From an uncultured Methanosarcinales archaeon (GTDB lineage Archaea > Nanobdellota > Nanobdellia > Woesearchaeales > GW2011-AR15): a stretch of DNA of 64,000 nucleotides. The stretch spans positions 79,481 to 143,480 of the forward strand of contig CAYRXW010000005.1 in the NCBI GenBank assembly GCA_964428335.1, in the 5' to 3' direction. A program made the translations under genes and the position numbers. The notes beneath the pieces were generated by a model. The model was given only the letters and a program-made list of their open reading frames with translations. It searched no databases and was not told the origin of the DNA. Numbering within the stretch: the first letter of the stretch is position 1; every line of letters starts with the position of its first letter. Positions 2,131 through 28,601 of this stretch are shown one piece after another.

Positions 2131-2826
2131 TCACAATCTGCCTGTAACTGCCAGCATGCTCACTATCTCATCTTTCAGATAGTCGATCTCATATTTTTCA
2201 TATCTTCCGTCCGGTGTCAGATGGACCAATATCTGTCCTGCAATCTTTTGGCCGTATTCTATTTCCATGATATACCTGTATAAACTTAACTGCAGGGAAT
2301 ATTTTGAAAAATTGCAGTCCTGGAGATGTGAAATAGGCTCACTGCATCTCCTGTCCCTAAAGCCTGTCATATCAATGCTCCTATTTGTCTTCCAGTCTAT
2401 GAGAAATATCCCTTTATCTGTCTTTGAGAGCGCATCAATCTGCCCTCCGATACAATATATAGGACTACCGATGACCTTTTCAGCCTCGATGAAATCATGC
2501 TCCTCATCCCTCATGAAATCATTCACTGCATTGAAATATGTCCTTTCAGTTTTGGTTGAAGGTATTGGTGATTTAGTCTTTCTAATTAAGGATTCTGCAT
2601 AGCTGTGGACTAATTTACCGAATTCTCTGGATGCTATGCTTTTCTTCTCCCACATGTCCAGGACCTGTTTTACTGTGAGACCGTCTCTTAATGCTATATG
2701 GTTGCTCCACCTTTCTGTATCGAATTTCTCGAAGAATTCTGAGATGAATTGTGTCGAGGATTGAAGTTCTTTTCCTGATTCATCATGGATGTATTTATGG
2801 CCGTCTTGGATGAATGTGATTGACAT
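2131..2826 (-). CDS. PD-(D/E)XK family nuclease (231 aa)
   Basis: Core motif GGQIDALSKTDKGIFLIDWKT carries a D...D-x-K arrangement (hhhD ... hh(D/E)xK), typical of restriction-like, Cas4-like and phage exonuclease folds. Confidence 0.55.
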   Translation of the reverse strand: MSITFIQDGHKYIHDESGKELQSSTQFISEFFEKFDTERWSNHIALRDGLTVKQVLDMWEKKSIASREFGKLVHSYAESLIRKTKSPIPSTKTERTYFNAVNDFMRDEEHDFIEAEKVIGSPIYCIGGQIDALSKTDKGIFLIDWKTNRSIDMTGFRDRRCSEPISHLQDCNFSKYSLQLSLYRYIMEIEYGQKIAGQILVHLTPDGRYEKYEIDYLKDEIVSMLAVTGRL

Positions 2827-3002: not shown

Positions 3003-3620
3003 CTACTTTCTATCCCACATATGAGCAATGTTAACTTTTTTTTCAATCAATTTGAAATAATGTTCCTTTTCATGTTCAAATTTTTGAAAAACTGCATATG
3101 AAACTACATCTGCAATCTGTAGACCTACCCAAGACTGAGACCAACTATGGTGAACTTCAATTTCTCTATTCCATTTTAATTCTTTAAATTTAATTTCAAG
3201 ATAATTGTTAAAATCATCAATCAAACTTTGTTTTCCTTTTGATCTGTCAATTCTGATAATTAATTTTTTAGAATCAATTGCAATATTAGAAAGGTGACCT
3301 GTCACAAAATTGTATAACTTATGTTTATCTTCTTTTAGATATTTGCTATATACTTTATTTTTTTCTAATATTACACTTTGCGCGTGCGCTGAAGTCTCTG
3401 CAAATTTTTTTAGTATGTGCTCAATGAGTTCTGGACTAGACTTATTTGATTTTATTTCCTGAACACCTTTAAGCAGTTTTTCAAACTTATATCTTCGCAT
3501 ATTTTTAATTAATCTATCAAATTCATGAGGTTTATCTATCCAAATTGCTGTACTTACAAAAAACTTTGAACCGTGCTCTCCAAGGTCTCCAGTTTCATCA
3601 ATAAAGACATACCTTTCCAT
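3003..3620 (-). CDS. DUF3800 family protein
   Basis: N-terminal YVFIDETGD and C-terminal GLQIADVVSYAV match the conserved DUF3800 termini (YxFxDESG ... QxADxxA). Length 205 aa. Confidence 0.7.
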   Translation of the reverse strand: MERYVFIDETGDLGEHGSKFFVSTAIWIDKPHEFDRLIKNMRRYKFEKLLKGVQEIKSNKSSPELIEHILKKFAETSAHAQSVILEKNKVYSKYLKEDKHKLYNFVTGHLSNIAIDSKKLIIRIDRSKGKQSLIDDFNNYLEIKFKELKWNREIEVHHSWSQSWVGLQIADVVSYAVFQKFEHEKEHYFKLIEKKVNIAHMWDRK

Positions 3621-3757
3621 CGTGAAAGAAATAGGTAAATTGTTTATATAGTTTGTTGGCTAGAAGCCTTACTAAAATATTGAATTTCACTATACTACTC
3701 CTTTTCTAGATTTTTTAGTAGTGAGTAGATGAGGAGAATTCTAGTTTAGAAAATCTT

Positions 3758-6700
3758 TTATTTTGAGATATCATAGAATCTTTCAAAGAATCTAGTGAAT
3801 TTTTCAATAATAGTTTCACGCTTTTTTGTGCGTTCTCCTGTTTTAGAAAAACGAGATACTGGTGGTAAAACTTTAGTTATTGCTGTTCCTGTTGTCGGAA
3901 TACTTCCATCTCTAAAGGCATTCTCTATAAAACTATATGCTTCATCACGATTAAGGTTTTCCTCGTCAATTATTCTCTCAAATTCTTCGATTTTCTTTTT
4001 TTCTACAAACTTCTGCCAATCTTCATCTATTATTGTTTTTTTATTAAGAGATTCTATAAATTGATGAATGAGATCTCTTTTATTTCGTAATTCTATACTT
4101 GAATCTATTGCTTTGTTAATATCAATTAAGATTTCCTTATCTTTTGTGTGTTCTTCATGATATTTTTTAATTAATTTTAAAATATAATCAATATTGATTT
4201 CTATTTGTTTGATAAGTTCCATTTCAAACACAATATCCTCATTAACATTTTCTTTTTCTGTGTCTTTGTTTTTTCTAAATTCATTATAGAGGTCTATGTA
4301 TAAACTATGATAATCTTGAACATCTCGTTCAGTTAATATCTCATTACCTTCAAATTCATCAAAAGTTGTAAGAATATTGCGAATTCTTAATATGCCACCA
4401 TAAAGCTTAATAAAATCCTTCTGATTTTTTTCTCCAAGTATTCTTTCTCCTATCGGAAAGTTATCCTGTAGTTCTTCGACTAAACTTTTATATCCTCTTA
4501 TTGTTTTTCCATCTTTTTTATATCCGTTGTAATATTCTTTGTAAGTTTTAAGTAAAACGATTCCGCTTGCTTCTTTATCTCCAAAAAGTGAAATAGATTC
4601 GTTGGTTGCTTTTTCTAAATTTCTAAAACAAACTATGTTACCAAAGGTTTTTATGCTGTTTAAAATACGGTTAGTTCTTGAATATGCTTGAAGTAGACCA
4701 TGCAGTTTTAAATTTTTATCTACCCAAAGTGTATTTAGTGTAGTGGCATCAAATCCAGTTAAAAACATATTTACAACTATTAAAATATCTATTTCCCGAT
4801 TTTTTACACGTTCGCTAACATCTTTATAATAATTTTGAAATTTGTCTGAGGAAGTGTCGTATGATGTACCAAACATATTATTGTAATCCTTAATAGCATT
4901 TTCTAGAAAATCTCTTGAATTTTCATCAAGTTTGCTAGTGTCTTCAGGATTTTCATCAGTAACTCCATCTTCTTCTTCATTTACACCAAAACTATAGATT
5001 AGGGCAATTTTTAATCTTTGTATTTCGGGCAATGATTTTTGTTGCTCTTCAAATTTAGAATAATACTTTTTTGCCATATCTATTGATTGAACAGCAAAAA
5101 TAGAGTTAAATCCAGATAAACGAATCTTTTCCTTTATTATAGCAACTTTTTTTCTATCTTTTGCAGTCACAAGCTCTTGAATGTTTTTTGTAACCTGATG
5201 AATATATGACTTATCATTTCTTTTGGTTTTTTGATTGAAGTGATCAATAATGTAATTTACAACATTATTTAATCTTTTAGGGGCAGACAAAATACCTTCT
5301 CTATCTATATCTTTAACTTTTTTATCTTCAATATTCTCTGCTTCCCTTAATGTAGAAATATAATCAACCTTGAAGGGTAATACATTTTTATCAGCAATCG
5401 CATCCACAATTGTATAAGTATGCAATTTATCGCCAAATGCTTGTTCTGTTGTTTTTAAGTCTACTCTTCCACCTGAGGATGAATTAACAGCAAAAATAGG
5501 TGTTCCTGTAAATCCAAAAAGGTGATATTTATTAAATGCTTTTGTGATAGAATTATGCATATCTCCAAATTGTGAACGATGACATTCATCAAAAATTAGA
5601 ACAATATGTCCCTCAAAGATTTTATGCCCCTTATTTTTTGCTATAAATCTATCAAGTTTTTGAATCGTAGTTATTATAATTCGAGCATTTGGATCTTCAA
5701 GCTGCCTTTTTAAAATTGAAGTGCTAGTATTGCTGTTTGCAGCACCTTTCTCAAATTTATCATATTCTTTCATTGTTTGATAGTCCAAATCTTTTCTATC
5801 AACAATAAATAAAACTTTATCAATAAACTGAAGCTTGCTTGTTAATTGTGCAGTTTTAAAACTAGTTAATGTTTTTCCTGAACCAGTAGTATGCCAAATA
5901 TAGCCTCCTGCTTTAATAGTTCCAAATTGTTTATAATTAGTGCTTACTTCAATTTTGTTTAATATTTTTTCAGTTGCAACAATTTGATAAGGTCGCATTA
6001 CTAAAAGCTGTTTATCTGTTGTAAATACACAGTATTTAGTAATTATGTTTAATAGAGAATGTTTTGCAAAGAAAGTCTTTGAAAAATCAATTAAATCTAT
6101 TATTGGGCGATTAGCATGATCTGCCCACCAACTAGTAAATTCAAAACTATTGCTTGATTTTTTACCCTTTTTTTGTATCCCTTTTGACTCTTTAATGTGT
6201 TCAAAACGAGTTGTATTACTATAATATTTTGTATGTGTTCCGTTAGAAATAACAAAAATTTGGATGTACTCATATAGACCGCATGATGCCCAAAAACTTT
6301 CTTTTTGATATCGATTTATTTGATTAAATGCTTCTTGAATTGCTACGCCCCTTCTTTTAAGCTCAATATGAACTAATGGCAATCCATTTACTAAAATTGT
6401 TACATCATAACGGTTTTTGTATTTTCCATCTTCAGTTTCATATTGGTTAATTACTTGCAGAGAATTGCTATGAATATTATCCTTTTTTATAAGATAAATA
6501 TTTTTACTTGTTCCATTATCACACTTTAAAATTTTGATATAATCTTCCTGTATTGTTGCAGTTTTTTCTGCTATGCTTTGATTTGGATTTGCTAACTCTT
6601 TTTTGAAGAAATAATTCCATTCTTTCTCACTAAATGTATAATTGTTTAATTTTTCTAATTGTTTTCTTAGATTTAATATTAATTCTTCTTCACTTTTTAG

Positions 6701-6868
6701 TTCAACATATTCATAGGCTTGTGTTTGCAATTGTTTTATGAAAGCTTTTTCTAAGTCTGCTTCACTTTGATAGCTTTCTGCTCGTTTTCCGTAAGGTGGA
6801 TTATATTCAGCTACAACGGTACTTTCAGTATTTTGTGCTACCAGATTGTAAGTCTTGTTATCCGGCAT
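3758..6868 (-). CDS. hsdR: Type I restriction enzyme R subunit HsdR (1036 aa)
   Basis: SF2 helicase motifs are present: HTTGSGKT (Walker A/motif I), LIFDECHRS (DEAH-like motif II) and FTGTP. Size and N-terminal nuclease region fit HsdR. It overlaps the upstream ATPase gene by 11 nt. Confidence 0.9.
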   Translation of the reverse strand: MPDNKTYNLVAQNTESTVVAEYNPPYGKRAESYQSEADLEKAFIKQLQTQAYEYVELKSEEELILNLRKQLEKLNNYTFSEKEWNYFFKKELANPNQSIAEKTATIQEDYIKILKCDNGTSKNIYLIKKDNIHSNSLQVINQYETEDGKYKNRYDVTILVNGLPLVHIELKRRGVAIQEAFNQINRYQKESFWASCGLYEYIQIFVISNGTHTKYYSNTTRFEHIKESKGIQKKGKKSSNSFEFTSWWADHANRPIIDLIDFSKTFFAKHSLLNIITKYCVFTTDKQLLVMRPYQIVATEKILNKIEVSTNYKQFGTIKAGGYIWHTTGSGKTLTSFKTAQLTSKLQFIDKVLFIVDRKDLDYQTMKEYDKFEKGAANSNTSTSILKRQLEDPNARIIITTIQKLDRFIAKNKGHKIFEGHIVLIFDECHRSQFGDMHNSITKAFNKYHLFGFTGTPIFAVNSSSGGRVDLKTTEQAFGDKLHTYTIVDAIADKNVLPFKVDYISTLREAENIEDKKVKDIDREGILSAPKRLNNVVNYIIDHFNQKTKRNDKSYIHQVTKNIQELVTAKDRKKVAIIKEKIRLSGFNSIFAVQSIDMAKKYYSKFEEQQKSLPEIQRLKIALIYSFGVNEEEDGVTDENPEDTSKLDENSRDFLENAIKDYNNMFGTSYDTSSDKFQNYYKDVSERVKNREIDILIVVNMFLTGFDATTLNTLWVDKNLKLHGLLQAYSRTNRILNSIKTFGNIVCFRNLEKATNESISLFGDKEASGIVLLKTYKEYYNGYKKDGKTIRGYKSLVEELQDNFPIGERILGEKNQKDFIKLYGGILRIRNILTTFDEFEGNEILTERDVQDYHSLYIDLYNEFRKNKDTEKENVNEDIVFEMELIKQIEINIDYILKLIKKYHEEHTKDKEILIDINKAIDSSIELRNKRDLIHQFIESLNKKTIIDEDWQKFVEKKKIEEFERIIDEENLNRDEAYSFIENAFRDGSIPTTGTAITKVLPPVSRFSKTGERTKKRETIIEKFTRFFERFYDISK

Positions 6869-7955
6869 TTTGTTCTACCTTCCATTTAAATTCTTTAATG
6901 AATTTATTGAATGCTTCTTGAAATAAAAATTTTTCATCATTAGATAATTCTTTGTATTCTAATTCAGATAACCTACTATGACTATTTAATTGTAAAAGTT
7001 TTACACATTCTGGTTTATTATCTCCTACTATGCATTCACTCCAATCATCATATCCTAAAAAATTAGCTGTCTTTTCTAATAAACTTCTAAAAAGATTAAA
7101 ATGATATTTTTTAATATTATTAGTATTAATAGCATTTTGAATCTCATCTTTTACCACAAAATGATAACCAAACGGAGAATCACCCTGATGTTCAAGTTTT
7201 AATTTTGTACCATCTTTTGATAAAATGTATCTATATTCTTTATTTTTCTTGAAAGAATTAAATAAAACATTATAAAATAAGGCATGATGAGTTGTTATAA
7301 GAAATTTCAATTTGTTGTTGTTAGATCCTTTTATTAGTTCAATTAAATCTAAAGCCATTGTAATGAGTCTATTGTCATCTATAGATGAAACAGGATCATC
7401 GATAATAACATATTCTAATTCATTAAATATCTTGGTTGATCTATTATCTACTTCACTAATATTCAATTCTTCAATAGCCGTTTTCAAAATAGTATAAAAA
7501 ACAGACCAAATAAGTACACTTTCTTCGCCTCTAGAAATTTTTATATTATCAGTACTACCCTTATCTTCTGTAGGTATATTAAATGTTAATTTTCCATTAA
7601 TTAAGTCAAAAGATGGTTCTATTTTGGTATTAAGAATTTTTTTAAAATTATCTATGATTTTTTTATCCATTCCCTCATCTTTAATTATTTTCGCTTCCCA
7701 AGAATTTGAATTAAACTCAAGAATGAATTCATCGTTATCCCATTTAAATAAATCTTCTAAAAGAGCATTAAAACATAATACCTTAATATTAGTTGATTCA
7801 TTTTCGTCATCTAATTTAATGAATTCATTAGATACTCTTGTTTTTCCTGTAGAATTGAAAGCATACATTATTGCAATTTGTTTCTTATTTGTGTGTGAAT
7901 CAAGGTTATTTTTTATTTCTACAGCAACTTCTTCAATTGAATCAAATTCAGCCAT
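6858..7955 (-). CDS. ABC-type (SMC/PrrC N-domain-like) ATPase embedded between hsdS and hsdR; possible restriction-linked anticodon-nuclease-like or Rlo-like protein
   Basis: Deviant Walker A AFNSTGKT. ABC-signature-like SRGEESVL. Walker B plus D-loop YVIIDDPVSSIDDNR. H-loop LITTHH. A ~140-aa C-terminal extension of unknown function follows. Overlaps hsdS by 8 nt and hsdR by 11 nt. Confidence 0.55.
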   Translation of the reverse strand: MAEFDSIEEVAVEIKNNLDSHTNKKQIAIMYAFNSTGKTRVSNEFIKLDDENESTNIKVLCFNALLEDLFKWDNDEFILEFNSNSWEAKIIKDEGMDKKIIDNFKKILNTKIEPSFDLINGKLTFNIPTEDKGSTDNIKISRGEESVLIWSVFYTILKTAIEELNISEVDNRSTKIFNELEYVIIDDPVSSIDDNRLITMALDLIELIKGSNNNKLKFLITTHHALFYNVLFNSFKKNKEYRYILSKDGTKLKLEHQGDSPFGYHFVVKDEIQNAINTNNIKKYHFNLFRSLLEKTANFLGYDDWSECIVGDNKPECVKLLQLNSHSRLSELEYKELSNDEKFLFQEAFNKFIKEFKWKVEQNAG

Positions 7956-9138
7956 TTGCTTTGACCTCTTTAAAAGTTAAGAGTTTTTCTCTATAATACT
8001 CATATTGTTTTCTTCTTGCTTCTAATTCTGCTGGAAGACCAATAGAGATATCATTAACAAGAGCATCGAATTTATCAAGGAGTTTAACTATTCGTTCTTG
8101 TTCTTTAAGTGAAGGAAGTGGGATTCTTGCTTTTTCTAATCCATTAGAATTAATTGATGATATCTTTCCAGAAGAAATAAAGCTTTTTATTTGAGAATGA
8201 AATTTTTTTGTTCTTAAAAAATATGAAATGTATTTTGGGTTTATTTTGTGTGAAAATATATAGCAAGCGTCATGAATAACAATATCTGCATCACCTAGCC
8301 AAGCAACACCTAAACCTATATCCTCAATTGTTTCACCAGCTGCAACAATAATAACGTCTCCTGGATGTGCAACTCTTAATTTTTTTGCTAACTCAGGTTT
8401 TAGAAATGATTTTGACTTTTCAGCCCAAATATTATAATGAGTATACATTTCACCATAATGTATACATGGAACTCCCTCAGTCACAATATCATCTTTAACA
8501 AATCTTCTACCCCTAAGAAAACTACCAATTTCTCCGAGTGACTTATTTTCAATATTTTCAACATTAAACATTTCTTCACGATAATATTCATACTGTTTCT
8601 TTCTTGCTTCCAGCTCCGCTTCCAGCTCCGCTTCCAGCTCCGCTTCCAGCTCCGTAAAATTATCAAATATTTTAATTATTTCTTCTTGGACTGGGAGAGG
8701 TGGGAGAGGAATTTGAAACTTTTCTATCATTGGTTTTCTAATTGATTTTACAGTTGCATTTACAGATTTTTTTAAGATATAAGGTAAGAAATTATCATAT
8801 AAAAAATAATAGGCGAACTTTGTTAGTATCTTTTTGTTAGTAAAATGAATACGATATGCTCTTTGATGCAAAGCGTATTTTCCATTCACATAATGAAAGA
8901 TTTCACCAACTCCACCTTCACCAGGAATTAATATAGCTTCTTCATCAAATTCATAAGTATTTATTAACTTAACAAACTTTGAACGAACAAACAAGGGATA
9001 CTTACCATTTTCAACTGCTTCATTCCCATTGCTACTCCCAGTACCAACTTCAGCAACTGCCCTCAATTCTTTAAACTCAACACCCTCTGGACAAAGTTCA
9101 TTAATTAATCTATCAAGCTTATTGGAATTCCTAACCAT
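7948..9138 (-). CDS. hsdS: Type I R-M specificity subunit HsdS (type IC-like)
   Basis: Two TRD-like halves separated by a central conserved region (ELEAELEAELEAELEARKKQYEYYREEM). That region is repeated at the C-terminus (LPAELEARRKQYEYYREKL). Typical HsdS layout. Confidence 0.85.
   Translation of the reverse strand: MVRNSNKLDRLINELCPEGVEFKELRAVAEVGTGSSNGNEAVENGKYPLFVRSKFVKLINTYEFDEEAILIPGEGGVGEIFHYVNGKYALHQRAYRIHFTNKKILTKFAYYFLYDNFLPYILKKSVNATVKSIRKPMIEKFQIPLPPLPVQEEIIKIFDNFTELEAELEAELEAELEARKKQYEYYREEMFNVENIENKSLGEIGSFLRGRRFVKDDIVTEGVPCIHYGEMYTHYNIWAEKSKSFLKPELAKKLRVAHPGDVIIVAAGETIEDIGLGVAWLGDADIVIHDACYIFSHKINPKYISYFLRTKKFHSQIKSFISSGKISSINSNGLEKARIPLPSLKEQERIVKLLDKFDALVNDISIGLPAELEARRKQYEYYREKLLTFKEVKANG
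8606..8653. repeat. perfect 4 x 12-bp tandem repeat (gcttccagctcc) encoding (ELEA)4 in the HsdS central conserved region
   Basis: Read directly at 8606-8653. It is in frame within hsdS on the minus strand. Confidence 0.95.
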
Positions 9139-9140
9139 CT

Positions 9141-10703
9141 TTATTTTCCGCTTTCAATTTCGCCAACAATTTTATCAATTGCAGTTCTAAGTTCATGCTG
9201 TTTTTTTACGATTTCAGAAATTTGTTTATTAAGTTGAATGATATCAACAACTTCGTTTGTATCTTCCTGTTCTACATAGCTTGAAACTGCAATATTATAA
9301 TCATTTTCTGCAATCGTTTTATTATCTACTAATTTAGCAAAATACGTAACATCTTTACGATTTTTGAATGCATCAATAATTTTATTTAGGTTTTCATCAC
9401 TCAACTTATTTTTATTTCCTCCGCGAACAAATTCAGCAGATGCATCGATAAATAAGGTATTATTATCTTTCTTGCTTTTTTTAAGCACGATTATACAGGT
9501 TGCAATTGTAGTTCCAAAAAATAGATCCGGTGGTAACTGAATAACCGCGTCAACATAATTATTATCAACCAAATATTTTCTGATTTTTTGCTCTGCTCCA
9601 CCCCTATAAAGTACACCAGGGAATTCAACTATTGCAGCAGTTCCACTTGTAGAAAGCCATGATAGCATATGCATTGTAAAAGCTAAATCTGCTTTGCTTT
9701 TAGGTGCCAAAACTCCTGCTGGAGAAAAACGAGGATCATTAATTAATATGGGATTAGAATCTCCTTCCCATTGTATTGAATAAGGGGGATTAGAGACAAT
9801 TGCATCAAATGGCTCATCATCCCAATGTTTAGGATGTGTAAGTGTATTGCCATGCGCGATGTTAAAATGATTGTAGTTAATATCATGCAAGAACATATTA
9901 ATACGACATAGGTTAAAAGTTGTTAAGTTAATTTCTTGCCCAAAAAAACCTTGACGAACATTTTCTTTTCCGAGAACTTTAGCAAATTTAAGTAACAAAG
10001 AACCAGAACCACAAGCAGGGTCATATACTTTATTTAGTTCTTTTTTGCCAATAATCGTAATTCTAGCCAAAAGTTCGCTAACTTCTTGAGGTGTAAAAAA
10101 TTCTCCTCCTGACTTTCCGGCACTGCTGGCATACATTGTCATTAAAAATTCATAAGCATCGCCAAAAGCATCAATAGTATTGTCTGAATAATTTCCAAGA
10201 CCAAGTTCACTTATTGATTCTAAAAGCTTAACAAGCTGTTTATTTCTATGCTCTACTGTGTTTCCTAGCTTATTTGAATTTACATCTAAGTCATCAAATA
10301 ATCCTTTTAAGTCTTCTTCGCTTTCTGTTCCCTTTGCAGAATTTTCAATATTCTTAAAAACCGCAGACAAGGTTTCATTCAAATTAGGATCATTACGTGC
10401 TTTTCTAGTGACATTCTTGAATAATTCACTTGATAGAATATAAAATCCTTTTTCCTTAACAGTGTCAGCTCTGCCAAGTTCAGCTTCTTCATCAGATAAG
10501 TTAGCATAATCAAAATCTTTCTTTCCAGAACGCCTTTCATCATCATTAATATAATTAGTAAGATTTTCGCTAATAAAGCGATAAAAAAGTATTCCTAAAA
10601 CATATTGTTTAAAATCCCACCCATCAACACTACCTCTTAGATTGTTTGCAATTTGCCAAATAGTTCGATGCAATTCTGATCGTTCTTGCTCTTTTGATGC
10701 CAT
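9141..10703 (-). CDS. hsdM: Type I R-M N6-adenine DNA methyltransferase subunit HsdM
   Basis: NPPYS catalytic motif (IVSNPPYSIQW), AdoMet-binding region DPACGSGS, 520 aa. The stop codon lies 2 nt from the hsdS start. Confidence 0.9.
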   Translation of the reverse strand: MASKEQERSELHRTIWQIANNLRGSVDGWDFKQYVLGILFYRFISENLTNYINDDERRSGKKDFDYANLSDEEAELGRADTVKEKGFYILSSELFKNVTRKARNDPNLNETLSAVFKNIENSAKGTESEEDLKGLFDDLDVNSNKLGNTVEHRNKQLVKLLESISELGLGNYSDNTIDAFGDAYEFLMTMYASSAGKSGGEFFTPQEVSELLARITIIGKKELNKVYDPACGSGSLLLKFAKVLGKENVRQGFFGQEINLTTFNLCRINMFLHDINYNHFNIAHGNTLTHPKHWDDEPFDAIVSNPPYSIQWEGDSNPILINDPRFSPAGVLAPKSKADLAFTMHMLSWLSTSGTAAIVEFPGVLYRGGAEQKIRKYLVDNNYVDAVIQLPPDLFFGTTIATCIIVLKKSKKDNNTLFIDASAEFVRGGNKNKLSDENLNKIIDAFKNRKDVTYFAKLVDNKTIAENDYNIAVSSYVEQEDTNEVVDIIQLNKQISEIVKKQHELRTAIDKIVGEIESGK

Positions 10704-10973
10704 ATTACTATTTAAAAATCATATTCATTAAATATGTTTTGCTCTTTTTTTTATAGTTTATTAATTAATCATTTCGTAAAAAAATAGAGAAAAATTCATC
10801 TTTTCTTCATTTTTTTAGAAAAAATGCTTTAAAAGCCAAAGAAAAACTTAGAGAACTTTTCAAAACCAACCAAAAAGATAAATAATAATAAATTCTTAAT
10901 CCACATCTCCCAACACCTATCCCTTTACAATCATTACTATACCCTTATAACCTCCATCCCATTCCCATATCAT
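10704..10973. promoter_or_regulatory. divergent AT-rich intergenic region between hsdM (minus strand) and the rhomboid gene (plus strand); likely holds both promoters
   Basis: 270 bp at roughly 20% GC, with TATA-like runs (tttata, ttttaaata). No transcription signal was verified. Confidence 0.3.
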
Positions 10974-14893: not shown

Positions 14894-15730
14894 GTGATGC
14901 CTAAAAAGAAATCCAAAAAAACATCTGTAAAAAAAGAAAATAAGAACCTTATCAAGGTACTATCTTTTCCTTTTGTATTACTGCAGTTTTTGGTGATGCT
15001 GCCATTCCGGATAATATCTTTCTTCTATAATTTAGCAATCAAGGTGAACAAGAAAACAAAGGAGATAAAGGTAAAGAAAGCAAGGGAAGCTATCGAAGCC
15101 AGGTATGAAGATTTTAAGATAATTGAGCAGTATTCAGGGGATATAAAAAAGTGGGAGAGGACACTTCCAAAGAGTTCAATTGGAATAATCATAGGTGCAA
15201 GAGGGAAAGGCAAGTCAGCTCTAGGAATAAAGATACTTGAGAACCTTAAAGCCATGAATAAGAAAAGCCTTTGCGCAATGGGGTTCAACCAGGAAGATAT
15301 GCCTGCATGGATAACTGTTGCAGGAGATATAAAGGACATCCCTTCAAATTCCTTTGTCCTTATTGATGAAGGAGGAATTTTATTTTCTTCAAGAAGATCA
15401 ATGACTGATGCAAACCAATTGCTTTCAGATTTGATACTGATTTCAAGGCATAAGAGCTTAAGCATATTATTCATAAGCCAGAATTCTGCAAACCTTGATA
15501 TAAACATACTTAGGCAGGCTGATTACCTGCTGCTAAAGCCTTCTTCTTTGCTCCAGATTGATTTTGAAAGGAAGAAAATAAAGGAATTATATGATGAAGT
15601 AAAAGAGCAGTTCGAGAAATTCCAGGAACATAAAGGGCTAACTTACATATATTCTGAAGATTTCAGAGGCTTTGTCAATAATCCCCTTCCAAGTTTTTGG
15701 ACAATGGATATCAGTAAGAGCTTTAAATGA
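14894..15730 (+). CDS. membrane-anchored P-loop NTPase (Zot-like or small packaging-ATPase-like)
   Basis: N-terminal TM helix. Walker A GARGKGKS. Walker B FVLIDEGG. Confidence 0.5.
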   Translation: MMPKKKSKKTSVKKENKNLIKVLSFPFVLLQFLVMLPFRIISFFYNLAIKVNKKTKEIKVKKAREAIEARYEDFKIIEQYSGDIKKWERTLPKSSIGIIIGARGKGKSALGIKILENLKAMNKKSLCAMGFNQEDMPAWITVAGDIKDIPSNSFVLIDEGGILFSSRRSMTDANQLLSDLILISRHKSLSILFISQNSANLDINILRQADYLLLKPSSLLQIDFERKKIKELYDEVKEQFEKFQEHKGLTYIYSEDFRGFVNNPLPSFWTMDISKSFK

Positions 15731-16387
15731 TTAATCCAGCATCCCTCTCTCCCTGAAGCTGAAGTATCCTTCACCAATTATCACATGATCCAATAGCTTT
15801 ATGTCAAGTAACTCCCCAGATTCTTTCATCCTTTGAGTTATTTCAATGTCTTCTGAACTTGGCTCAGTTGAATTTGAAGGATGGTTATGTATTAAAATGA
15901 ATGATTTTGCTGATTTTCTTATCGCTTCCTTAAGTATCTCTCTTGGATGGACCAATGATGCATCAAGTATGCCTAAAGAGATTAATTCTGGTTTTCCTAT
16001 TATCTGGTTTTTTGAATCTAGATAAATTCCAAAAAGATGCTCTTTCTTCTCTTCTTTTAAGTATTTCATGATATTATATATGTCGTTTGCGTTTCTTATC
16101 ATTACCTTTGAATCTTTTTTTGCTGCGTTTCTTCTTGAGAATTCATATAATGCAATTATCTGCATTGCTTTTGCATCCCCAATGCCTTTAATTTTTTTCA
16201 TCTCTTCCAAAGACAGGTCTGATAAATTCTCCTTAAGAAGCCTATTTGACATGTCAATTATATTCTCGTCCCTTGTGCCTTTCTGAAGTATTATTGCAAG
16301 AAGCTCTGCATCGCTTAGAGAAGAGACGCCAAATCTCAATAATCTCTCTCGAGGTTGGCTTTCTATCGGAAGATCTTTTATCTTCAT
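15731..16387 (-). CDS. RadC-like JAB/MPN domain protein
   Basis: JAMM motif HNHPSNSTEPSSED. N-terminal helix-hairpin-helix-like region. 218 aa. Confidence 0.85.
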   Translation of the reverse strand: MKIKDLPIESQPRERLLRFGVSSLSDAELLAIILQKGTRDENIIDMSNRLLKENLSDLSLEEMKKIKGIGDAKAMQIIALYEFSRRNAAKKDSKVMIRNANDIYNIMKYLKEEKKEHLFGIYLDSKNQIIGKPELISLGILDASLVHPREILKEAIRKSAKSFILIHNHPSNSTEPSSEDIEITQRMKESGELLDIKLLDHVIIGEGYFSFRERGMLD

Positions 16388-21556: not shown

Positions 21557-22471
21557 ATGAAAGAGATAGTTTCAAGGATACTTGAAAAGATTGATGAAAA
21601 AAGCACTGCAGTTTTTCTAGATAGCCAGAAATACGAAATAAAAGATGAGAATTTTATTCAGATAAAAGATCCAACTAAAAATAAGAGCGTATCTTTTGTT
21701 GATGGAGGAAATCTTGAATTAATAAAGTGTCCTTCTTTCTCTGTTTTTTTTAACAGGATATATTATTCTACATATAAACTTAATAAAAGGGTAAAATCAA
21801 AAAGAACGGATTTCTTTACTTTTATCCATACGACAATTTTAGATAATAAGATTATCTATAATGCTGAATGCTTTGGGAATGATATGAAATTTTCTTTTGA
21901 TTCTGAAGACAGGACAATCTCCAGTTCAACAGCAAGGGCTGATATCTCAATTATTGGAAACGTAATAAGGAGATTTTCAGAATTAAAGCTTGCTTCTGAG
22001 ATTGAATCTGATTATATCATAATTGATGGTTCCTTGGAAAAAAAGTATACAAATGAAGAAAGGTTCCTTGAAATGCTGAAGAATAGGAATGTATTTGGGC
22101 TTTCAAAATCAAATGATATACTGACTGAAAAAGGAAGCTCTGCCGGAGCTGCTGTTTTTTTATCAAAGAAAGGCTGCTTTGCCTATAAGATATGCAGGAA
22201 CAATTATTTCTTAAAGCTGCATGACAAATCAAAATATGTTTTCAGGCTGGAATCATGTAATGATAATGAAATAAATGAAATTGCTTCGCTTCTCAAGGAA
22301 AATTCCAAAGATATTATTTTTCCAGGCTACCCTTATGGCCTTATCGAAGCAGATAAGTTTGCAAGGGTTAGCGAAAATGAGAGAAAGGCGCTGAAGATGC
22401 AGATGCTGATGATGCTTGGTGATAAAATAACACCATATATCAATAATTCAAATGCCCATGAACTATTTTGA
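21557..22471 (+). CDS. hypothetical protein (304 aa)
   Basis: ORF only. Two DGx motifs (FVDGGNL, IIIDGSL) noted, but no confident family. Confidence 0.35.
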   Translation: MKEIVSRILEKIDEKSTAVFLDSQKYEIKDENFIQIKDPTKNKSVSFVDGGNLELIKCPSFSVFFNRIYYSTYKLNKRVKSKRTDFFTFIHTTILDNKIIYNAECFGNDMKFSFDSEDRTISSSTARADISIIGNVIRRFSELKLASEIESDYIIIDGSLEKKYTNEERFLEMLKNRNVFGLSKSNDILTEKGSSAGAAVFLSKKGCFAYKICRNNYFLKLHDKSKYVFRLESCNDNEINEIASLLKENSKDIIFPGYPYGLIEADKFARVSENERKALKMQMLMMLGDKITPYINNSNAHELF

Positions 22472-23461
22472 TTTCTTGTTCCTAGCACTTCTTACAATAT
22501 AGTCAATCATCTGCGCATAAGACATGCCTGCCTGCCTGGCCATTTTTGCAAGTCCTGCGTCTTCTGATATGTCTGGATTTGGATTTACTTCAAGAACATA
22601 TGGCCTATTGTTCTTATCGACCCTAAAATCAACCCTATAGTAATCCTCGCACTGCAGATTATCGCCTGCCATCACTGCATATTTTACAAGCTGGTCATAT
22701 AGCTTATCTGAAATTTTTGAAAAAGATGAATTTGTCTTTTTGTATTCTGTGCTTTCCTCAACCCACTTTGCGTCATAGTTCACAATCTTTGGAAGTTCAG
22801 TTGGCATGCCATTAAATGATACTTCTGATATAGGAAGCACAAACCTTTTTCTTGTGCCTAAGACACCTACATAGAACTCACGTCCTTCGATATATGACTC
22901 AACAAGTGCAGGCTGCTTGTAATCCCTAAGTATTGCCCTTATCTTATTCCTTAAATCTGTCTTGTTCCTTACAACTGAATCATTCCTTATGCCTACTGAT
23001 GAATCCTCCCTCATAGGTTTTACAAATAAAGGAAATATAAGGTCCTTGCTCAGCTTTTCATCTGCTCTTGAAAACACCTGGAACTTTGGGGTTGGTATCT
23101 TATGATGCAACAGCACTTTTTTTGTTATTGCCTTATTTACGCATAAAGACAGGCAGAAAACACCTGAACCTGTATATTTTATTTTTAATAAGTCAAGCAT
23201 TGCAGGAACATGCGCCTCAAACCTAGAGTCTGAAAAAAAGCCGTCATCAACAAGATTGAATACCAAATCTATCTTATGCTTCTCGCTTTTGAACCTTTTG
23301 AATAGGTTAAGATTAGCGTGATATTCTAAAGGCCTATGGCCTGTTTCTGTTAAAGCACGCATGACAGAAAAAGCATGTCCGTTGTCATCCCTGCCCTGCC
23401 AGTCTTTTTTGTAAAGACCACGCATGTCAGTATCTGTTGTAAATAATACTGCGACTTTCAT
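22463..23461 (-). CDS. ATP-grasp ligase (D-Ala-D-Ala ligase/RimK-like)
   Basis: ESYIEGREF and LEVNPNP motifs. A paralog of the adjacent gene. Confidence 0.7.
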   Translation of the reverse strand: MKVAVLFTTDTDMRGLYKKDWQGRDDNGHAFSVMRALTETGHRPLEYHANLNLFKRFKSEKHKIDLVFNLVDDGFFSDSRFEAHVPAMLDLLKIKYTGSGVFCLSLCVNKAITKKVLLHHKIPTPKFQVFSRADEKLSKDLIFPLFVKPMREDSSVGIRNDSVVRNKTDLRNKIRAILRDYKQPALVESYIEGREFYVGVLGTRKRFVLPISEVSFNGMPTELPKIVNYDAKWVEESTEYKKTNSSFSKISDKLYDQLVKYAVMAGDNLQCEDYYRVDFRVDKNNRPYVLEVNPNPDISEDAGLAKMARQAGMSYAQMIDYIVRSARNKKSK

Positions 23462-24438
23462 TAATTAGTTATTTCTAGTTCAGTGCTATTTATATTCTTT
23501 TTCATAGCTGCAAAAATTATTTTTTTTATTGTCTCTTCATAGCTATAGCCTGCTGCTTTCGCTGACCTAAAGAAACCTGCGTCATCATTTATGCATGGGT
23601 TTGGGTTGACATCAATCACATAAGGGATGTTATTTTTTATCCTGAAATCTACCCTTGCATAACCTGAACAGGAAAATATCCTGAAAACTTTCAATGCTAT
23701 CTCTTTTACCTTTCCTTCTGTGACCTTGTCAATAACTATAGGGCAAACCCCGACTGTATGAATATATGCTGAAGACTGCAAATCCCATTTTGCATCATAC
23801 GTGAGTATTTTAGGCTCGTTTTTTGGAAGATCAAACCTTATTTCAGACAATGGAAGGACTTCTTCATCCAGTATTGCTGCGTTTATTTCCCTGCCTTCAA
23901 TGTACTCCTCAATCAATGATGCCTGGTTAAATTTCTTAGTTACCTCTTCTACCTTTATCCTTAATTCTTCAATATTTCTTACAAAGGAATCATTTGTTAT
24001 ACCAATGCTTCCGTGCTCTTTCACAGGCTTTACTATCAATGGAAAATTAAGGCTTACTGATTTTCCTATCTTGTCTGCAACAATATAGCCTGGTGTCAGA
24101 ACATTATTTGATTTTAATACTTCCTTTATTGCATCCTTATCTGATGTAAGCTCAATATTTGCTGCGCTTGAGCCTGTGAATACTATTCTGTTTTTTTCAA
24201 GGGATTTTACTATGTCATATTCATGATACTTGCTTCCATAGGTCTTTTCTGCAAGGTTTATTACGACATCATACTCTTTTAATTTTGGAAGGATAGAATA
24301 ATCAAACCTAAAGATTTCAACTTTTTCTTTCAGAATGCCTTTAATCTTATGCGCTATCTCAAGGGCTTCATCATCAGACAATGTGTCTTTTGTGTTTTTT
24401 GTTTTTTCCGGAAGGTTATGTATTATTGCAATTCTCAT
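23461..24438 (-). CDS. ATP-grasp ligase (second paralog)
   Basis: EEYIEGREI and IDVNPNP motifs. Confidence 0.7.
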   Translation of the reverse strand: MRIAIIHNLPEKTKNTKDTLSDDEALEIAHKIKGILKEKVEIFRFDYSILPKLKEYDVVINLAEKTYGSKYHEYDIVKSLEKNRIVFTGSSAANIELTSDKDAIKEVLKSNNVLTPGYIVADKIGKSVSLNFPLIVKPVKEHGSIGITNDSFVRNIEELRIKVEEVTKKFNQASLIEEYIEGREINAAILDEEVLPLSEIRFDLPKNEPKILTYDAKWDLQSSAYIHTVGVCPIVIDKVTEGKVKEIALKVFRIFSCSGYARVDFRIKNNIPYVIDVNPNPCINDDAGFFRSAKAAGYSYEETIKKIIFAAMKKNINSTELEITN

Positions 24439-24938
24439 TTTAGCCTTTTTTCATATAGTATCTTATCTTCCCCGACTTTATAGAAGTCTCTTATCCTTGC
24501 TATCTCCTTATAGTTTAATTTTTCATAGAACTTCTGCGTTGGAAGATAAGTCTTATCAGAACTTGTCTCAATATGTATCATCCTAGCCTTTGGCTTCAGC
24601 TTCTTTTCAACAGATTCCATGAGGAACTTCCCAATTCCTTTTCCCTGATATACAGGATCAACTGCAATATAATACACTTCGTATACCCCTTCTGTCAAAG
24701 ATGCTTCACCATAGCAGATATAGCCAATCACTTTATCTTTTTCCAAAACACAGTCTATAATGTATTCTCCATCATCATATTCCAGGCAATGCTCTATGAG
24801 CTCAACTGCTATTTCCTTGTCCTTCCCATTGAAATTTTTTATTCTTGAAACTATATCACAAACGGCTTTTTTGTATTCTTTTGAGAAAGCTTTAACAGAA
24901 AGGCTTGAAATCATGCTCACTTCCATATAAACATGCAT
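24435..24938 (-). CDS. GNAT family N-acetyltransferase
   Basis: YQGKGIGKFLM acetyl-CoA binding motif. 167 aa. Confidence 0.8.
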   Translation of the reverse strand: MHVYMEVSMISSLSVKAFSKEYKKAVCDIVSRIKNFNGKDKEIAVELIEHCLEYDDGEYIIDCVLEKDKVIGYICYGEASLTEGVYEVYYIAVDPVYQGKGIGKFLMESVEKKLKPKARMIHIETSSDKTYLPTQKFYEKLNYKEIARIRDFYKVGEDKILYEKRLK

Positions 24939-27680: not shown

Positions 27681-28601
27681 TTATAGTTTTTTCAGGTATT
27701 CAATATATTCCTGTTTTTTTCCAAAACCTTTTGATTTTGCAATCCTTGCTATTGCCTTATCAAAACTGCTTCCATACTGGGCTGCTTTTTTTGGCCTGAA
27801 TGCATATTCTTCCTTTAATCCAAGATCAATCATCAGTTTCCTGAAGATGTATTTCTTGTGCTCATCTTTTAATTTTAATTCTCCGGATATGTTCATTCCT
27901 GCAACAATCAAGTCCTTATCAAGAAAAGGTGTTAAAAAGGTCATGCCCTCGTGGACTGCTATGCTATAGTCCCTCCCAAAATCGCGTTCATATGTACTTA
28001 TTAAGCCGTGCCAGCATTCTTCGTTTATGTCCTCTGCTTTTTCGTGCCTTTGATAACCAGCAAATATTTCCTCGCTTCCAAGGCCTCCAAACAAGGTATC
28101 TATCTTATCCTTCTTTGCAAGCTCGATTGCAGCAAGCTCTACTGCGCCAACTCCCAGATTTACCACATTTAAGTCTTTTTTTGGGACTATCTTTGCAATT
28201 TTTTCAAATATCTTTCCAACTTCTTCTAAAGAAAGTATCTTTTTTTTATGGTTAAAGCCGTATTCTTTTGCAATCCTTTCTGAATAGATTATATCCTCGC
28301 TTCCTTCCAACCCAACAGTATAACAGATGAAATCCTGCCTGTCTTTTTTTGATATGAATGAAATGCCTGTGGAATCAACACCACCTGAAAAGAATATCCC
28401 GAATTTTTTGCCTGGATACCTTTTTTCCATTGCCAAAAGAAACGGCTCTTTTATCTCTAAAACTGCTTTTTTCTCATCAGTTATGACTTTTGTTCCCAGA
28501 GCTTTCAAACGTGTTATATGGGAAGACCATTCATCTAAAGAGACTAACTTTCCATCTTTTGTAACAAACGATTGCTCTGTCATTTTATCCTTGGATTTCA
28601 T
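27681..28601 (-). CDS. PP-loop ATP pyrophosphatase, asparagine-synthetase-like domain protein
   Basis: FFSGGVDSTGISF (SGGxDS) at about residue 70, as in the AsnB C-domain. Overlaps the upstream HerA-like gene by 17 nt. Confidence 0.6.
   Translation of the reverse strand: MKSKDKMTEQSFVTKDGKLVSLDEWSSHITRLKALGTKVITDEKKAVLEIKEPFLLAMEKRYPGKKFGIFFSGGVDSTGISFISKKDRQDFICYTVGLEGSEDIIYSERIAKEYGFNHKKKILSLEEVGKIFEKIAKIVPKKDLNVVNLGVGAVELAAIELAKKDKIDTLFGGLGSEEIFAGYQRHEKAEDINEECWHGLISTYERDFGRDYSIAVHEGMTFLTPFLDKDLIVAGMNISGELKLKDEHKKYIFRKLMIDLGLKEEYAFRPKKAAQYGSSFDKAIARIAKSKGFGKKQEYIEYLKKL

What the first reader, a model, noticed from the sequence alone, without database searches (positions are those of the whole stretch)
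3758..10703. Type I R-M operon with a coupled ABC-type ATPase between hsdS and hsdR (prr-locus-like order)
The four genes are hsdM, hsdS, a 365-aa ATPase and hsdR. They overlap or abut by 2, 8 and 11 nt, so they form a single translationally coupled operon. The order matches the E. coli prr locus (prrA/hsdM, prrB/hsdS, prrC, prrD/hsdR), where the latent anticodon nuclease PrrC is kept silent by the R-M complex. The ATPase has ABC-ATPase motifs (deviant Walker A AFNSTGKT, signature-like SRGEES, Walker B plus D-loop IIDDPVSSIDD, H-loop TTHH), as does the PrrC N-domain. Its ~140-aa C-terminal region has no recognisable PrrC nuclease residues, so it may be a different restriction-linked effector.
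Basis: partly seen in the sequence, partly recalled or inferred. Interest (0 to 1): 0.65.

Follow-up and report, generated by a model that had tools for sequence, protein, structure and literature searches.

The report
Ordinary PrrC guard in restriction operon
The 365-aa "ATPase" between hsdS and hsdR is a regular member of the known PrrC anticodon-nuclease family with its nuclease residues present, so this is an ordinary prr-type restriction locus whose only unusual features are a probable DPANN-archaeal host and a lysine in place of one active-site arginine.

Summary
Four minus-strand genes (hsdM 9141-10703, hsdS 7948-9138, a 365-aa ORF 6858-7955, hsdR 3758-6868) are separated by a 2-nt gap, an 8-nt overlap and an 11-nt overlap.

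The order is prr-like and the R-M system is type IC. The claim that the C-terminus lacks PrrC nuclease residues is wrong.
- The protein matches the PADLOC PrrC profile end to end (E=1.7e-104).
- It aligns over its full length with Eco-like PrrC.
- It keeps the catalytic triad R320/E324/H356 (here R290/E294/H326), plus H295, H315 and D287.
- 68 of 80 related genomic loci show the same hsdM-hsdS-prrC-hsdR order.

It most likely works as a latent tRNA anticodon nuclease. The R-M complex keeps it silent, and a viral anti-restriction factor that disables the complex releases it.

Three smaller points stand out.
- The host looks like a DPANN archaeon, and the 6.95-kb cassette is shared at 83-86% nucleotide identity with archaeon GW2011_AR18.
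- The HEPN-motif arginine (Eco R349) is a lysine here. That change inactivates EcoPrrC, yet it recurs in about 24% of the protein's closest relatives.
- hsdS carries four ELEA repeats, against three in the nearest relative.

Verdict: a new member of a known kind, of low to moderate interest.

The parts
9141..10703 (-). hsdM, type I DNA methyltransferase subunit (520 aa)
   Evidence: TIGR00497 hsdM E=8e-233. N6_Mtase E=2.8e-116 plus HsdM_N. 88% aa identity to the L001 counterpart.
7948..9138 (-). hsdS, specificity subunit (396 aa) with two target-recognition domains
   Evidence: Methylase_S matched twice, E=7e-43. PADLOC Specificity_I E=2.8e-117. Starts 2 nt after the hsdM stop codon.
8605..8652 (-). 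Perfect 12-bp tandem repeat, about 4 copies, encoding (ELEA)4 in the central conserved region of HsdS
   Evidence: TRF: 8606-8654, period 12, 4.1 copies, 100% matches. Translation gives residues 163-178. The nearest relative L001 has 3 copies, and related prr loci carry 2-4 copies of ELEA/ELTA-type repeats.
6858..7955 (-). prrC homologue (365 aa): N-terminal ABC/Rad50-like NTPase plus C-terminal anticodon-nuclease (HEPN-like) domain
   Evidence: PADLOC PrrC E=1.7e-104, residues 6-363. More than 6800 homologues, some named 'anticodon nuclease', most carrying PF13166. Full-length alignment with Eco-like PrrC. AF2 model pLDDT 82, with Rad50/SMC-head fold hits.
7836..7862 (-). Walker A / P-loop AFNSTGKTR (K38, T39, R40 = Eco K46, T47, R48)
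   Evidence: K, T and R are (near-)invariant in 238 homologues.
7731..7775 (-). 'PrrC box' CFNALLEDLFKWDND (E67, W72, D73, N74 = Eco E88, W93, D94, N95)
   Evidence: The motif is defined in PMC3025547.
7368..7412 (-). Walker B + D-loop YVIIDDPVSSIDDNR (D186, D187, S190, S191, D193)
7287..7307 (-). H-loop KFLITTH (K217, T222, H223 = Eco K245, T250, H251)
6861..7208 (-). C-terminal nuclease domain (residues 250-365), helical, HEPN-like
   Evidence: Aligns with the Eco-like PrrC C-domain. AF2 model of the domain: pLDDT 79.6, four main helices. Top PDB Foldseek hit is a HEPN domain protein, 4nqf, TM 0.56-0.58 but E about 1. dN/dS of 0.275 against L001.
7074..7088 (-). RSLLE: R290 and E294 = Eco R320 and E324 of the catalytic triad. 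S291 replaces Eco N321.
   Evidence: R and E are invariant in 238 of 238 homologues.
6978..7001 (-). KLLQLNSH: H326 = Eco H356 (triad). K319 replaces the HEPN-motif arginine Eco R349. Q322 replaces Eco N352.
   Evidence: H is invariant. K at this position occurs in 28 of the 118 closest listed relatives and also in L001.
7164..7190 (-). LARP-like segment HQGDSPFGY (D259 = Eco D287), two residues shorter than Eco KYGDSNKSFSY
   Evidence: The LARP motif is defined in PMC3025547.
3758..6868 (-). hsdR, type IC restriction/translocase subunit (1036 aa)
   Evidence: HSDR_N, SWI2_SNF2/ResIII, T1R_D3-like and EcoR124_C (E=2e-68). Best solved relative is EcoR124 HsdR (2w00), E=8e-249. Its start overlaps the prrC stop by 11 nt.
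3757..10707 (-). Extent of the transferable cassette: the only stretch of the window's first 14 kb with DNA similarity to L001 (archaeon GW2011_AR18)
   Evidence: blastn: 83-86% nt identity over 3757-5113, 5217-8135 and 8559-10707, with nothing beyond the operon ends. Flanking genes are not shared. GC is 0.295 in the operon and 0.346 in the rest of the window.

Best explanation
This is a canonical prr-type locus: a type IC restriction-modification operon (hsdM-hsdS-hsdR) with a prrC gene inserted between hsdS and hsdR.

Shown here:
- The 365-aa protein belongs to the PrrC anticodon-nuclease family.
- It has a complete set of ABC-type NTPase motifs: P-loop, PrrC box, C-loop, Walker B/D-loop and H-loop.
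- Its C-terminal helical HEPN-like domain carries the Arg-Glu-His triad assigned to catalysis in EcoPrrC.

Inferred by homology to EcoPrrC/EcoprrI:
- PrrC is made together with HsdMSR from one transcript and is held latent by binding to the R-M complex.
- When a virus disables the type I enzyme with an anti-restriction factor, PrrC is released.
- Its NTPase domains dimerise head to tail and use NTP (GTP hydrolysis and dTTP binding in E. coli).
- Translation stops and the infection aborts.

The cassette is mobile. It was most likely acquired horizontally, and it sits in what appears to be a DPANN archaeal genome.
For: Family membership:
- PADLOC PrrC profile, E=1.7e-104, covering residues 6-363.
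- 6824 homologues. The closest named one is 'anticodon nuclease' (65% identity), and most carry PF13166.
- End-to-end alignment, 145 identical positions of 405 columns, with P0126. P0126 reproduces all EcoPrrC motif and residue numbers quoted by Meineke et al. 2010.
- 25 of the 33 residues essential in EcoPrrC are identical, including K46, T47, R48, E88, W93, D94, N95, K168, D215, D216, S219, S220, D222, T250, H251, H295, H315, R320, E324 and H356.

Genomic context:
- The same hsdM>hsdS>prrC>hsdR order occurs in 68 of 80 related loci.
- HsdR is type IC.

Structure and selection:
- The AF2 model (pLDDT 82) has a Rad50/SMC/ABC-like head and a helical C-domain whose top PDB match is a HEPN protein.
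- Purifying selection acts on both domains against the 80%-identical L001 orthologue: dN/dS is 0.19 for the N-domain and 0.275 for the C-domain.

Mechanism of the family: PMC1484252, PMC3025547, PMC3710099 and PMC12707154.
Against: - Eight residues essential in EcoPrrC differ: K171R, H225R, E262S, D276G, H297V, N321S, R349K and N352Q.
- In the yeast toxicity assay R349K was inactive in EcoPrrC; for N321 only A, Q and D substitutions were tested, all inactive, so the Ser found here is untested. K171R and N352Q were tolerated.
- The arginine of the HEPN Rx4-6H motif is therefore formally missing.
- The LARP segment linked to tRNA-Lys recognition is only about 5/11 identical and is two residues shorter, so the target tRNA is not established.
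- Direct Pfam and NCBIfam scans of this protein gave no hit.
- The Foldseek HEPN match is not statistically significant (E about 1).
- No biochemical property (latency, activation, cleavage) can be tested here.
- Nothing is known of anti-restriction factors in viruses of DPANN archaea.
Confidence: 0.82

Rival explanations
1. One reading: an ABC ATPase whose C-terminal domain is not the PrrC nuclease but a different, unknown restriction-linked effector.
For: Direct Pfam and NCBIfam scans of the protein return nothing. No solved structure is related by sequence. Identity to Eco-like PrrC is only about 36-40%.
Against: - The C-domain aligns with the PrrC C-domain without rearrangement.
- It carries R290/E294/H326, H265, H285, D259 and K269 at the positions of Eco R320/E324/H356, H295, H315, D287 and K299.
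- The PADLOC PrrC profile match runs to residue 363.
- The invariant columns of the family lie in this domain.
Confidence: 0.03
2. A PrrC homologue whose nuclease is attenuated or dead. It would be kept as a structural or regulatory partner of the R-M complex, or be on its way to decay, because the HEPN-motif arginine is lysine and several residues essential in EcoPrrC are replaced.
For: - K319 sits at the Eco R349 position. R349K, R349A and R349Q abolish EcoPrrC toxicity in yeast.
- S291 sits at the Eco N321 position. N321A, N321Q and N321D are inactive.
- D276G, H297V, E262S and H225R are also present.
- Neisseria and Xanthomonas PrrC were non-toxic in yeast, so not every natural PrrC behaves like EcoPrrC in that assay.
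Against: - The ORF is intact and tightly coupled to its neighbours.
- dN/dS of the C-domain against L001 is 0.275.
- K at this position recurs in 28 of the 118 closest listed relatives, with the rest of the site (S-H, R-x3-E) invariant. That pattern indicates a tolerated natural variant.
- H297, E262 and D276 vary across the family, including in the toxic S. mutans PrrC.
Confidence: 0.1
3. An active PrrC-family anticodon nuclease with a substrate other than tRNA-Lys, or adapted to archaeal tRNA modification. The mechanism is the same but the target differs.
For: - The LARP-like segment HQGDSPFGY is two residues shorter than Eco KYGDSNKSFSY and about 5/11 identical.
- The host is probably archaeal, where wobble-base modifications differ (general knowledge).
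Against: - D259 (Eco D287) is conserved here and in 111 of the 118 closest listed relatives.
- EcoPrrC tolerates differently modified and eukaryal tRNA-Lys.
- No data here bear directly on the substrate.
Confidence: 0.2

Closest known systems
EcoPrrC / EcoprrI (E. coli prr locus: prrA/hsdM, prrB/hsdS, prrC, prrD/hsdR)
   Same: - Same gene order and strand, with prrC between hsdS and hsdR of a type IC system.
- Same two-domain architecture.
- All NTPase motifs are present: P-loop, PrrC box, C-loop, Walker B/D-loop and H-loop.
- The catalytic triad R/E/H, H295, H315 and D287 are conserved.
   Different: - About 36% identity, and 365 aa against 396 aa (shorter N-terminus and shorter internal loops).
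- Walker A reads AFNSTGKT, not AFNGTGKT.
- Substitutions K171R, H225R, E262S, D276G, H297V, N321S, R349K and N352Q.
- The LARP segment is two residues shorter.
- The host is probably a DPANN archaeon, not an enterobacterium.
RloC (wobble-nucleotide-excising anticodon nuclease)
   Same: ABC-type NTPase fused to a C-terminal HEPN-like anticodon-nuclease domain with the same Arg-Glu-His triad. Both fall under Pfam PF13166.
   Different: RloC is much longer, has a Rad50-like coiled-coil and zinc-hook insert, and is rarely linked to R-M (abstracts of PMC2610378 and PMC3458546). The window protein is 365 aa, its model has a compact head with no coiled coil, and it is embedded in an R-M operon.
EcoR124I/II (archetype of type IC R-M)
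   Same: HsdR is homologous over its full length (E=8e-249 to PDB 2w00) and has the EcoR124_C domain. HsdS has a tetrapeptide tandem repeat in its central conserved region. From general knowledge, TAEL x2 or x3 in EcoR124I/II sets the spacer length of the recognition site.
   Different: EcoR124 has no prrC insert. The repeat here is ELEA x4.
Other R-M 'guardian' abortive-infection systems (PARIS AriAB; HEPN proteins embedded in R-M operons such as ApeA)
   Same: Same logic: they sense inhibition of restriction and respond by destroying tRNA or RNA.
   Different: PARIS is a separate ABC ATPase plus a TOPRIM nuclease and is not embedded in hsdMSR. The window protein matches the PrrC profile specifically.

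Membership tests
PrrC anticodon nuclease | Full-length match to a PrrC family profile | tested here: met
   PADLOC PDLC02360 PrrC: E=1.7e-104, protein residues 6-363, profile positions 20-351 of 372.
PrrC anticodon nuclease | ABC-type NTPase motifs with the essential residues K46, T47, R48 (P-loop), K168 and K/R171 (C-loop), D215, D216, S219, S220, D222 (Walker B/D-loop) and K245, T250, H251 (H-loop) | tested here: met
   All are present as K38, T39, R40, K139, R142, D186, D187, S190, S191, D193, K217, T222 and H223. K171R is functional in EcoPrrC.
PrrC anticodon nuclease | 'PrrC box' YYNAFxEDLFYWDND with essential E88, W93, D94, N95 | tested here: met
   CFNALLEDLFKWDND, residues 61-75, with E67, W72, D73 and N74. 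Motif from PMC3025547.
PrrC anticodon nuclease | C-domain catalytic triad Arg320-Glu324-His356 | tested here: met
   R290, E294 and H326. Invariant in 238 of 238 aligned homologues.
PrrC anticodon nuclease | Other essential and conserved nuclease-domain residues: H295, H315, R349, N321, N352 | tested here: inconclusive
   H265 and H285 are present. R349 is K319, N321 is S291 and N352 is Q322. In EcoPrrC, R349K was inactive and N352Q active; N321S was not tested (N321A/Q/D were inactive). K and S at these positions occur in 28 and 35 of the 118 closest listed relatives; Q at the N352 position occurs in only one other.
PrrC anticodon nuclease | LARP motif 284-KYGDSNKSFSY-294 (present only in a subset of PrrCs), including D287 | tested here: inconclusive
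   HQGDSPFGY: D259 is conserved, about 5/11 positions are identical, and there is a two-residue deletion.
PrrC anticodon nuclease | Gene embedded in a type IC hsdMSR locus, between hsdS and hsdR | tested here: met
   (coordinates and overlaps). (type IC HsdR). (68 of 80 related loci have the same order).
PrrC anticodon nuclease | Pfam PF13166 (AAA_13) hit | tested here: not met
   No Pfam hit for this protein at E<=0.1, while 32 of 34 aligned relatives hit PF13166, best E=4e-17. This reflects the model's weak sensitivity, not an architectural difference.
PrrC anticodon nuclease | Latent in complex with the R-M enzyme; activated by an anti-restriction factor; needs GTP and dTTP; cleaves tRNA-Lys 5' of the wobble base | not testable with these tools
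   These are biochemical properties of EcoPrrC (PMC1484252, PMC12707154). No tRNA gene lies in the window.
RloC | Long Rad50-like coiled-coil with zinc hook inserted in the ABC NTPase; usually not R-M linked | tested here: not met
   365 aa. The AF2 model has a compact head without a coiled coil. The alignment with PrrC has no large insert. The gene lies inside an R-M operon.
HEPN superfamily (nuclease domain) | Helical-bundle fold | tested here: inconclusive
HEPN superfamily (nuclease domain) | Rx4-6H motif | tested here: not met
   The motif reads K319-x6-H326, against R349-x6-H356 in EcoPrrC. Motif definition from PMC3710099.
Type IC restriction-modification | HsdR of the EcoR124 family with EcoR124_C domain; HsdS with a central tetrapeptide repeat | tested here: met
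   PF12008, E=2e-68. PDB 2w00 EcoR124 HsdR, E=8e-249. (ELEA)4 encoded at 8605-8652.

The most novel reading that the evidence does not exclude
This would be a working PrrC guardian of restriction in a DPANN archaeon, a domain for which the 2013 HEPN survey listed the PrrC/RloC family as 'Bacteria' only. It would have been acquired from bacteria as a 6.95-kb cassette. It would use a natural Lys-for-Arg variant of the HEPN Rx6H site that is lethal to activity in EcoPrrC. That would imply that viruses of DPANN archaea deploy anti-restriction factors against type I enzymes, and that the PrrC active site tolerates, or compensates for, loss of the motif arginine.
Probability: 0.35. Interest if true: 0.45.

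Novelty: new member of a known kind. Interest (0 to 1): 0.25.

Why it matters
For annotation, this locus should be labelled a PrrC / type IC R-M defence cassette. It is not a new effector.

If followed up, it offers three things:
- A natural test of whether the HEPN-motif arginine of PrrC is truly indispensable. About a quarter of this protein's closest relatives carry lysine there.
- An example of a bacterial-type "restriction guardian" moving into ultra-small archaea, whose viruses and counter-defences are almost unknown.
- A matched pair of cassettes (window and GW2011_AR18) that differ in one HsdS recognition domain and in repeat number. The pair shows how type IC specificity diversifies.

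None of this changes current understanding of how prr loci work.

Tried and rejected
- Pfam and NCBIfam scans of the 365-aa protein gave no family hit. Only PADLOC's PrrC model and the homologue search identified it.
- The PDB sequence search found no solved PrrC or RloC relative. The only hits were weak and look like chance matches, e.g. 'Dandelion-hepn' at E=0.021 aligned to the NTPase region.
- The look-up of encoding contigs had no record of the exact protein. Cluster look-ups returned no names or accessions for the window's proteins.
- I used an EcoPrrC sequence recalled from memory only as a search probe. The best database match was 93% identical, so the recalled sequence is inexact and is not used as evidence. 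For numbering I used the database protein P0126, which reproduces every motif position quoted in PMC3025547.
- The sigma-70 promoter and terminator scan gave no more than chance (51 found against 45 expected) and does not apply to a probable archaeon.
- No tRNA genes and no Rfam families occur in the window, so the host's tRNA-Lys could not be examined.
- A PADLOC scan of ten flanking genes found no second defence system next to the operon. It returned only weak Cas4-like and mad8-like hits plus a HerA-like ATPase 18 kb away.
- I considered and rejected RloC (no coiled-coil insert), a housekeeping ABC ATPase (specific PrrC profile and context) and an OLD/AAA_15/AAA_21 Abi ATPase (only 4 of 34 relatives touch AAA_21 weakly).


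Full report
**Observation.** The minus strand carries four consecutive ORFs: 9141-10703 (520 aa), 7948-9138 (396 aa), 6858-7955 (365 aa) and 3758-6868 (1036 aa). I read the junctions directly.
- The hsdM stop is followed by 2 nt and then the hsdS ATG.
- hsdS and the 365-aa ORF overlap by 8 nt (ATGGCTGA).
- The 365-aa ORF and hsdR overlap by 11 nt (ATGCCGGATAA).

Profile searches identify the flanking genes without ambiguity:
- hsdM: TIGR00497, E=8e-233.
- hsdS: Methylase_S matched twice.
- hsdR: HSDR_N, SWI2_SNF2/ResIII, T1R_D3-like and EcoR124_C.

The best solved relative of HsdR is EcoR124 HsdR (E=8e-249). The system is therefore type IC, the same family as EcoprrI.

**What the 365-aa protein is.** Pfam and NCBIfam gave no hit. 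The PADLOC PrrC profile matches residues 6-363 at E=1.7e-104. The large protein collection holds more than 6800 homologues. Most carry PF13166, and the closest named one is 'anticodon nuclease' from a Flavobacteriaceae MAG at 65% identity.

- A sequence recalled from memory served only as a search probe. It turned out to be inexact, with a best match of 93%.
- From the results I took P0126, a 396-aa Yersinia protein.
- P0126 reproduces every motif position and all 33 essential residues reported for EcoPrrC by Meineke et al. 2010 (PMC3025547).

I aligned the window protein with P0126 and 237 other homologues. It aligns end to end, with 145 identical positions. It keeps these features:
- P-loop: K38/T39/R40.
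- PrrC box: E67/W72/D73/N74.
- C-loop: K139/R142.
- Walker B/D-loop: D186/D187/S190/S191/D193.
- H-loop: K217/T222/H223.
- In the C-domain: H265, K269, H285, R290, E294 and H326. These correspond to Eco H295, K299, H315 and the proposed catalytic triad R320/E324/H356.
- D259, which corresponds to the anticodon-recognition residue D287.

R, E and H of the triad are invariant in all 238 sequences. The statement that the C-terminal region 'has no recognisable PrrC nuclease residues' is therefore wrong. This is PrrC, not an alternative effector.

**Structure.**
- An AlphaFold2 model built from 34 sequences (pLDDT 82.4) shows an ABC head. Its best PDB matches are Rad50, SMC and ABC-transporter NTPase domains. 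This agrees with the published classification of the PrrC/RloC NTPase as SbcC/Rad50-like (PMC3710099).
- There is no coiled-coil insert, which excludes RloC.
- The C-domain modelled alone (pLDDT 79.6) is helical, with four main helices. Its top PDB matches are HEPN proteins (4nqf, TM 0.56-0.58), but the E-value is non-significant at about 1. This is consistent with a HEPN fold but is not proof.
- No PrrC structure exists in the PDB by sequence.

**Context in other genomes.** Among the best 80, 68 have the co-directional order hsdM>hsdS>prrC>hsdR, and most of the others are truncated by contig ends. The arrangement is the standard, conserved prr architecture described in the literature (PMC3632139, PMC3710099, PMC12707154).

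**Mechanism.** The mechanism is inferred by homology and not shown here. PrrC is co-expressed with HsdMSR and kept latent by the R-M complex. A viral anti-restriction factor that inhibits the type I enzyme unmasks it. The NTPase domains dimerise and use NTP, and the nuclease cuts a tRNA anticodon loop (tRNA-Lys in E. coli), aborting the infection. Purifying selection on both domains supports a working protein: against the closest orthologue, dN/dS is 0.19 for the N-domain and 0.275 for the C-domain.

**Deviations.** Eight EcoPrrC-essential positions differ: K171R, H225R, E262S, D276G, H297V, N321S, R349K and N352Q.
- The most notable is K319 in place of R349. R349 is the arginine of the HEPN Rx4-6H motif, and R349K abolishes EcoPrrC toxicity in yeast.
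- The lysine also occurs in the L001 orthologue and in 28 of the 118 closest listed relatives. The flanking S-H and the R-x3-E helix stay invariant in them.
- I read it as a tolerated natural variant, not as decay. An attenuated enzyme remains a minor rival.
- The LARP-like segment is two residues shorter and about 5/11 identical, so substrate identity is open.

**Host and mobility.**
- The closest genomic locus is in 'archaeon GW2011_AR18' (Archaea). Protein identities to its operon are: hsdM 88%, hsdS 54%, prrC 80%, hsdR 86%.
- DNA similarity of 83-86% starts and stops exactly at the operon ends (window 3757-10707). It breaks only across hsdS 8136-8558, the second target-recognition domain.
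- The flanking genes are unrelated.
- Operon GC is 0.295, against 0.346 for the rest of the window.
- A HerA-like gene 18 kb away has only Woesearchaeota, Nanoarchaeota or DPANN-labelled named homologues, at 50-84% identity over full length.
- The window is therefore most probably from a DPANN archaeon, and the cassette is a horizontally moving unit. The next-closest PrrC relatives are bacterial.
- The 2013 HEPN survey listed the PrrC/RloC family as 'Bacteria', so an archaeal copy is a modest extension of the known range.

**Verdict.** This is a new member of a known kind, and standard defence-system annotation (PADLOC) would already call it PrrC. Interest is low to moderate. It rests only on the probable archaeal host and on the Lys variant of the HEPN motif.

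Noticed in passing
window 8605-8652 (hsdS, minus strand): A perfect 12-bp tandem repeat of about 4 copies encodes (ELEA)4 in the central conserved region of HsdS. The nearest relative (L001) has 3 copies, and related prr loci carry 2-4 copies of ELEA/ELTA/ELTT-type repeats. By analogy with TAEL x2 or x3 in EcoR124I/II (general knowledge), copy number should set the spacer length of the recognition site and can change by slippage.
   Followed up: partly
window 8136-8558 versus L001: This is the only part of the cassette with no DNA similarity to the GW2011_AR18 cassette. It is the second target-recognition domain of hsdS, while TRD1 is conserved. It looks like a domain swap that gives a new specificity.
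   Followed up: partly
window 6978-7001 (PrrC K319-H326): The arginine of the HEPN Rx6H motif (Eco R349) is lysine here, in L001 and in 28 of the 118 closest listed relatives, although R349K inactivates EcoPrrC in yeast. Q322 at the Eco N352 position is rare: only one other of those 118 has it.
   Followed up: partly
window 3003-3620 (minus strand): A DUF3800 gene (205 aa, E=6.5e-13) lies 137 bp downstream of hsdR on the same strand, with low GC (0.29). It is absent from the L001 cassette and has no PADLOC hit. It may be a separate small island gene.
   Followed up: partly
window 2131-2826 (minus strand): A PD-(D/E)XK nuclease-superfamily protein (231 aa) with weak Cas4-like PADLOC hits (E=3.5e-5). 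No CRISPR-associated context was seen nearby.
   Followed up: no
window 28585-30552 and 21557-22471: A HerA-like ATPase (655 aa) whose named homologues are all Woesearchaeota, Nanoarchaeota or DPANN archaea, and a separate NurA-domain protein. This is the main evidence that the window is archaeal.
   Followed up: partly
window 22463-24938 (minus strand): Two adjacent D-Ala-D-Ala-ligase-like ATP-grasp genes followed by a GNAT acetyltransferase gene, in a probable DPANN archaeon. This is unexpected for an organism without murein, and the function is unknown.
   Followed up: no
window about 30500-63900: A long run of glycosyltransferase, carbamoyltransferase, sugar kinase/SIS, HAD-glycosyltransferase fusion, radical-SAM/B12 and polysaccharide-flippase genes. 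It is probably a surface-glycan biosynthesis cluster.
   Followed up: no
window 14894-16387: A Zot-like P-loop protein (weak hit, E=1.5e-4) lies next to a RadC/JAB-domain gene (E=4e-41). Both are often associated with mobile elements.
   Followed up: no
L010, L025, L040, L045 and P0034: PrrC relatives at 40-55% identity occur in CPR bacteria (Peribacteria, Saccharibacteria, Parcubacteria) as well as in DPANN archaea. The cassette seems to circulate among ultra-small organisms.
   Followed up: no
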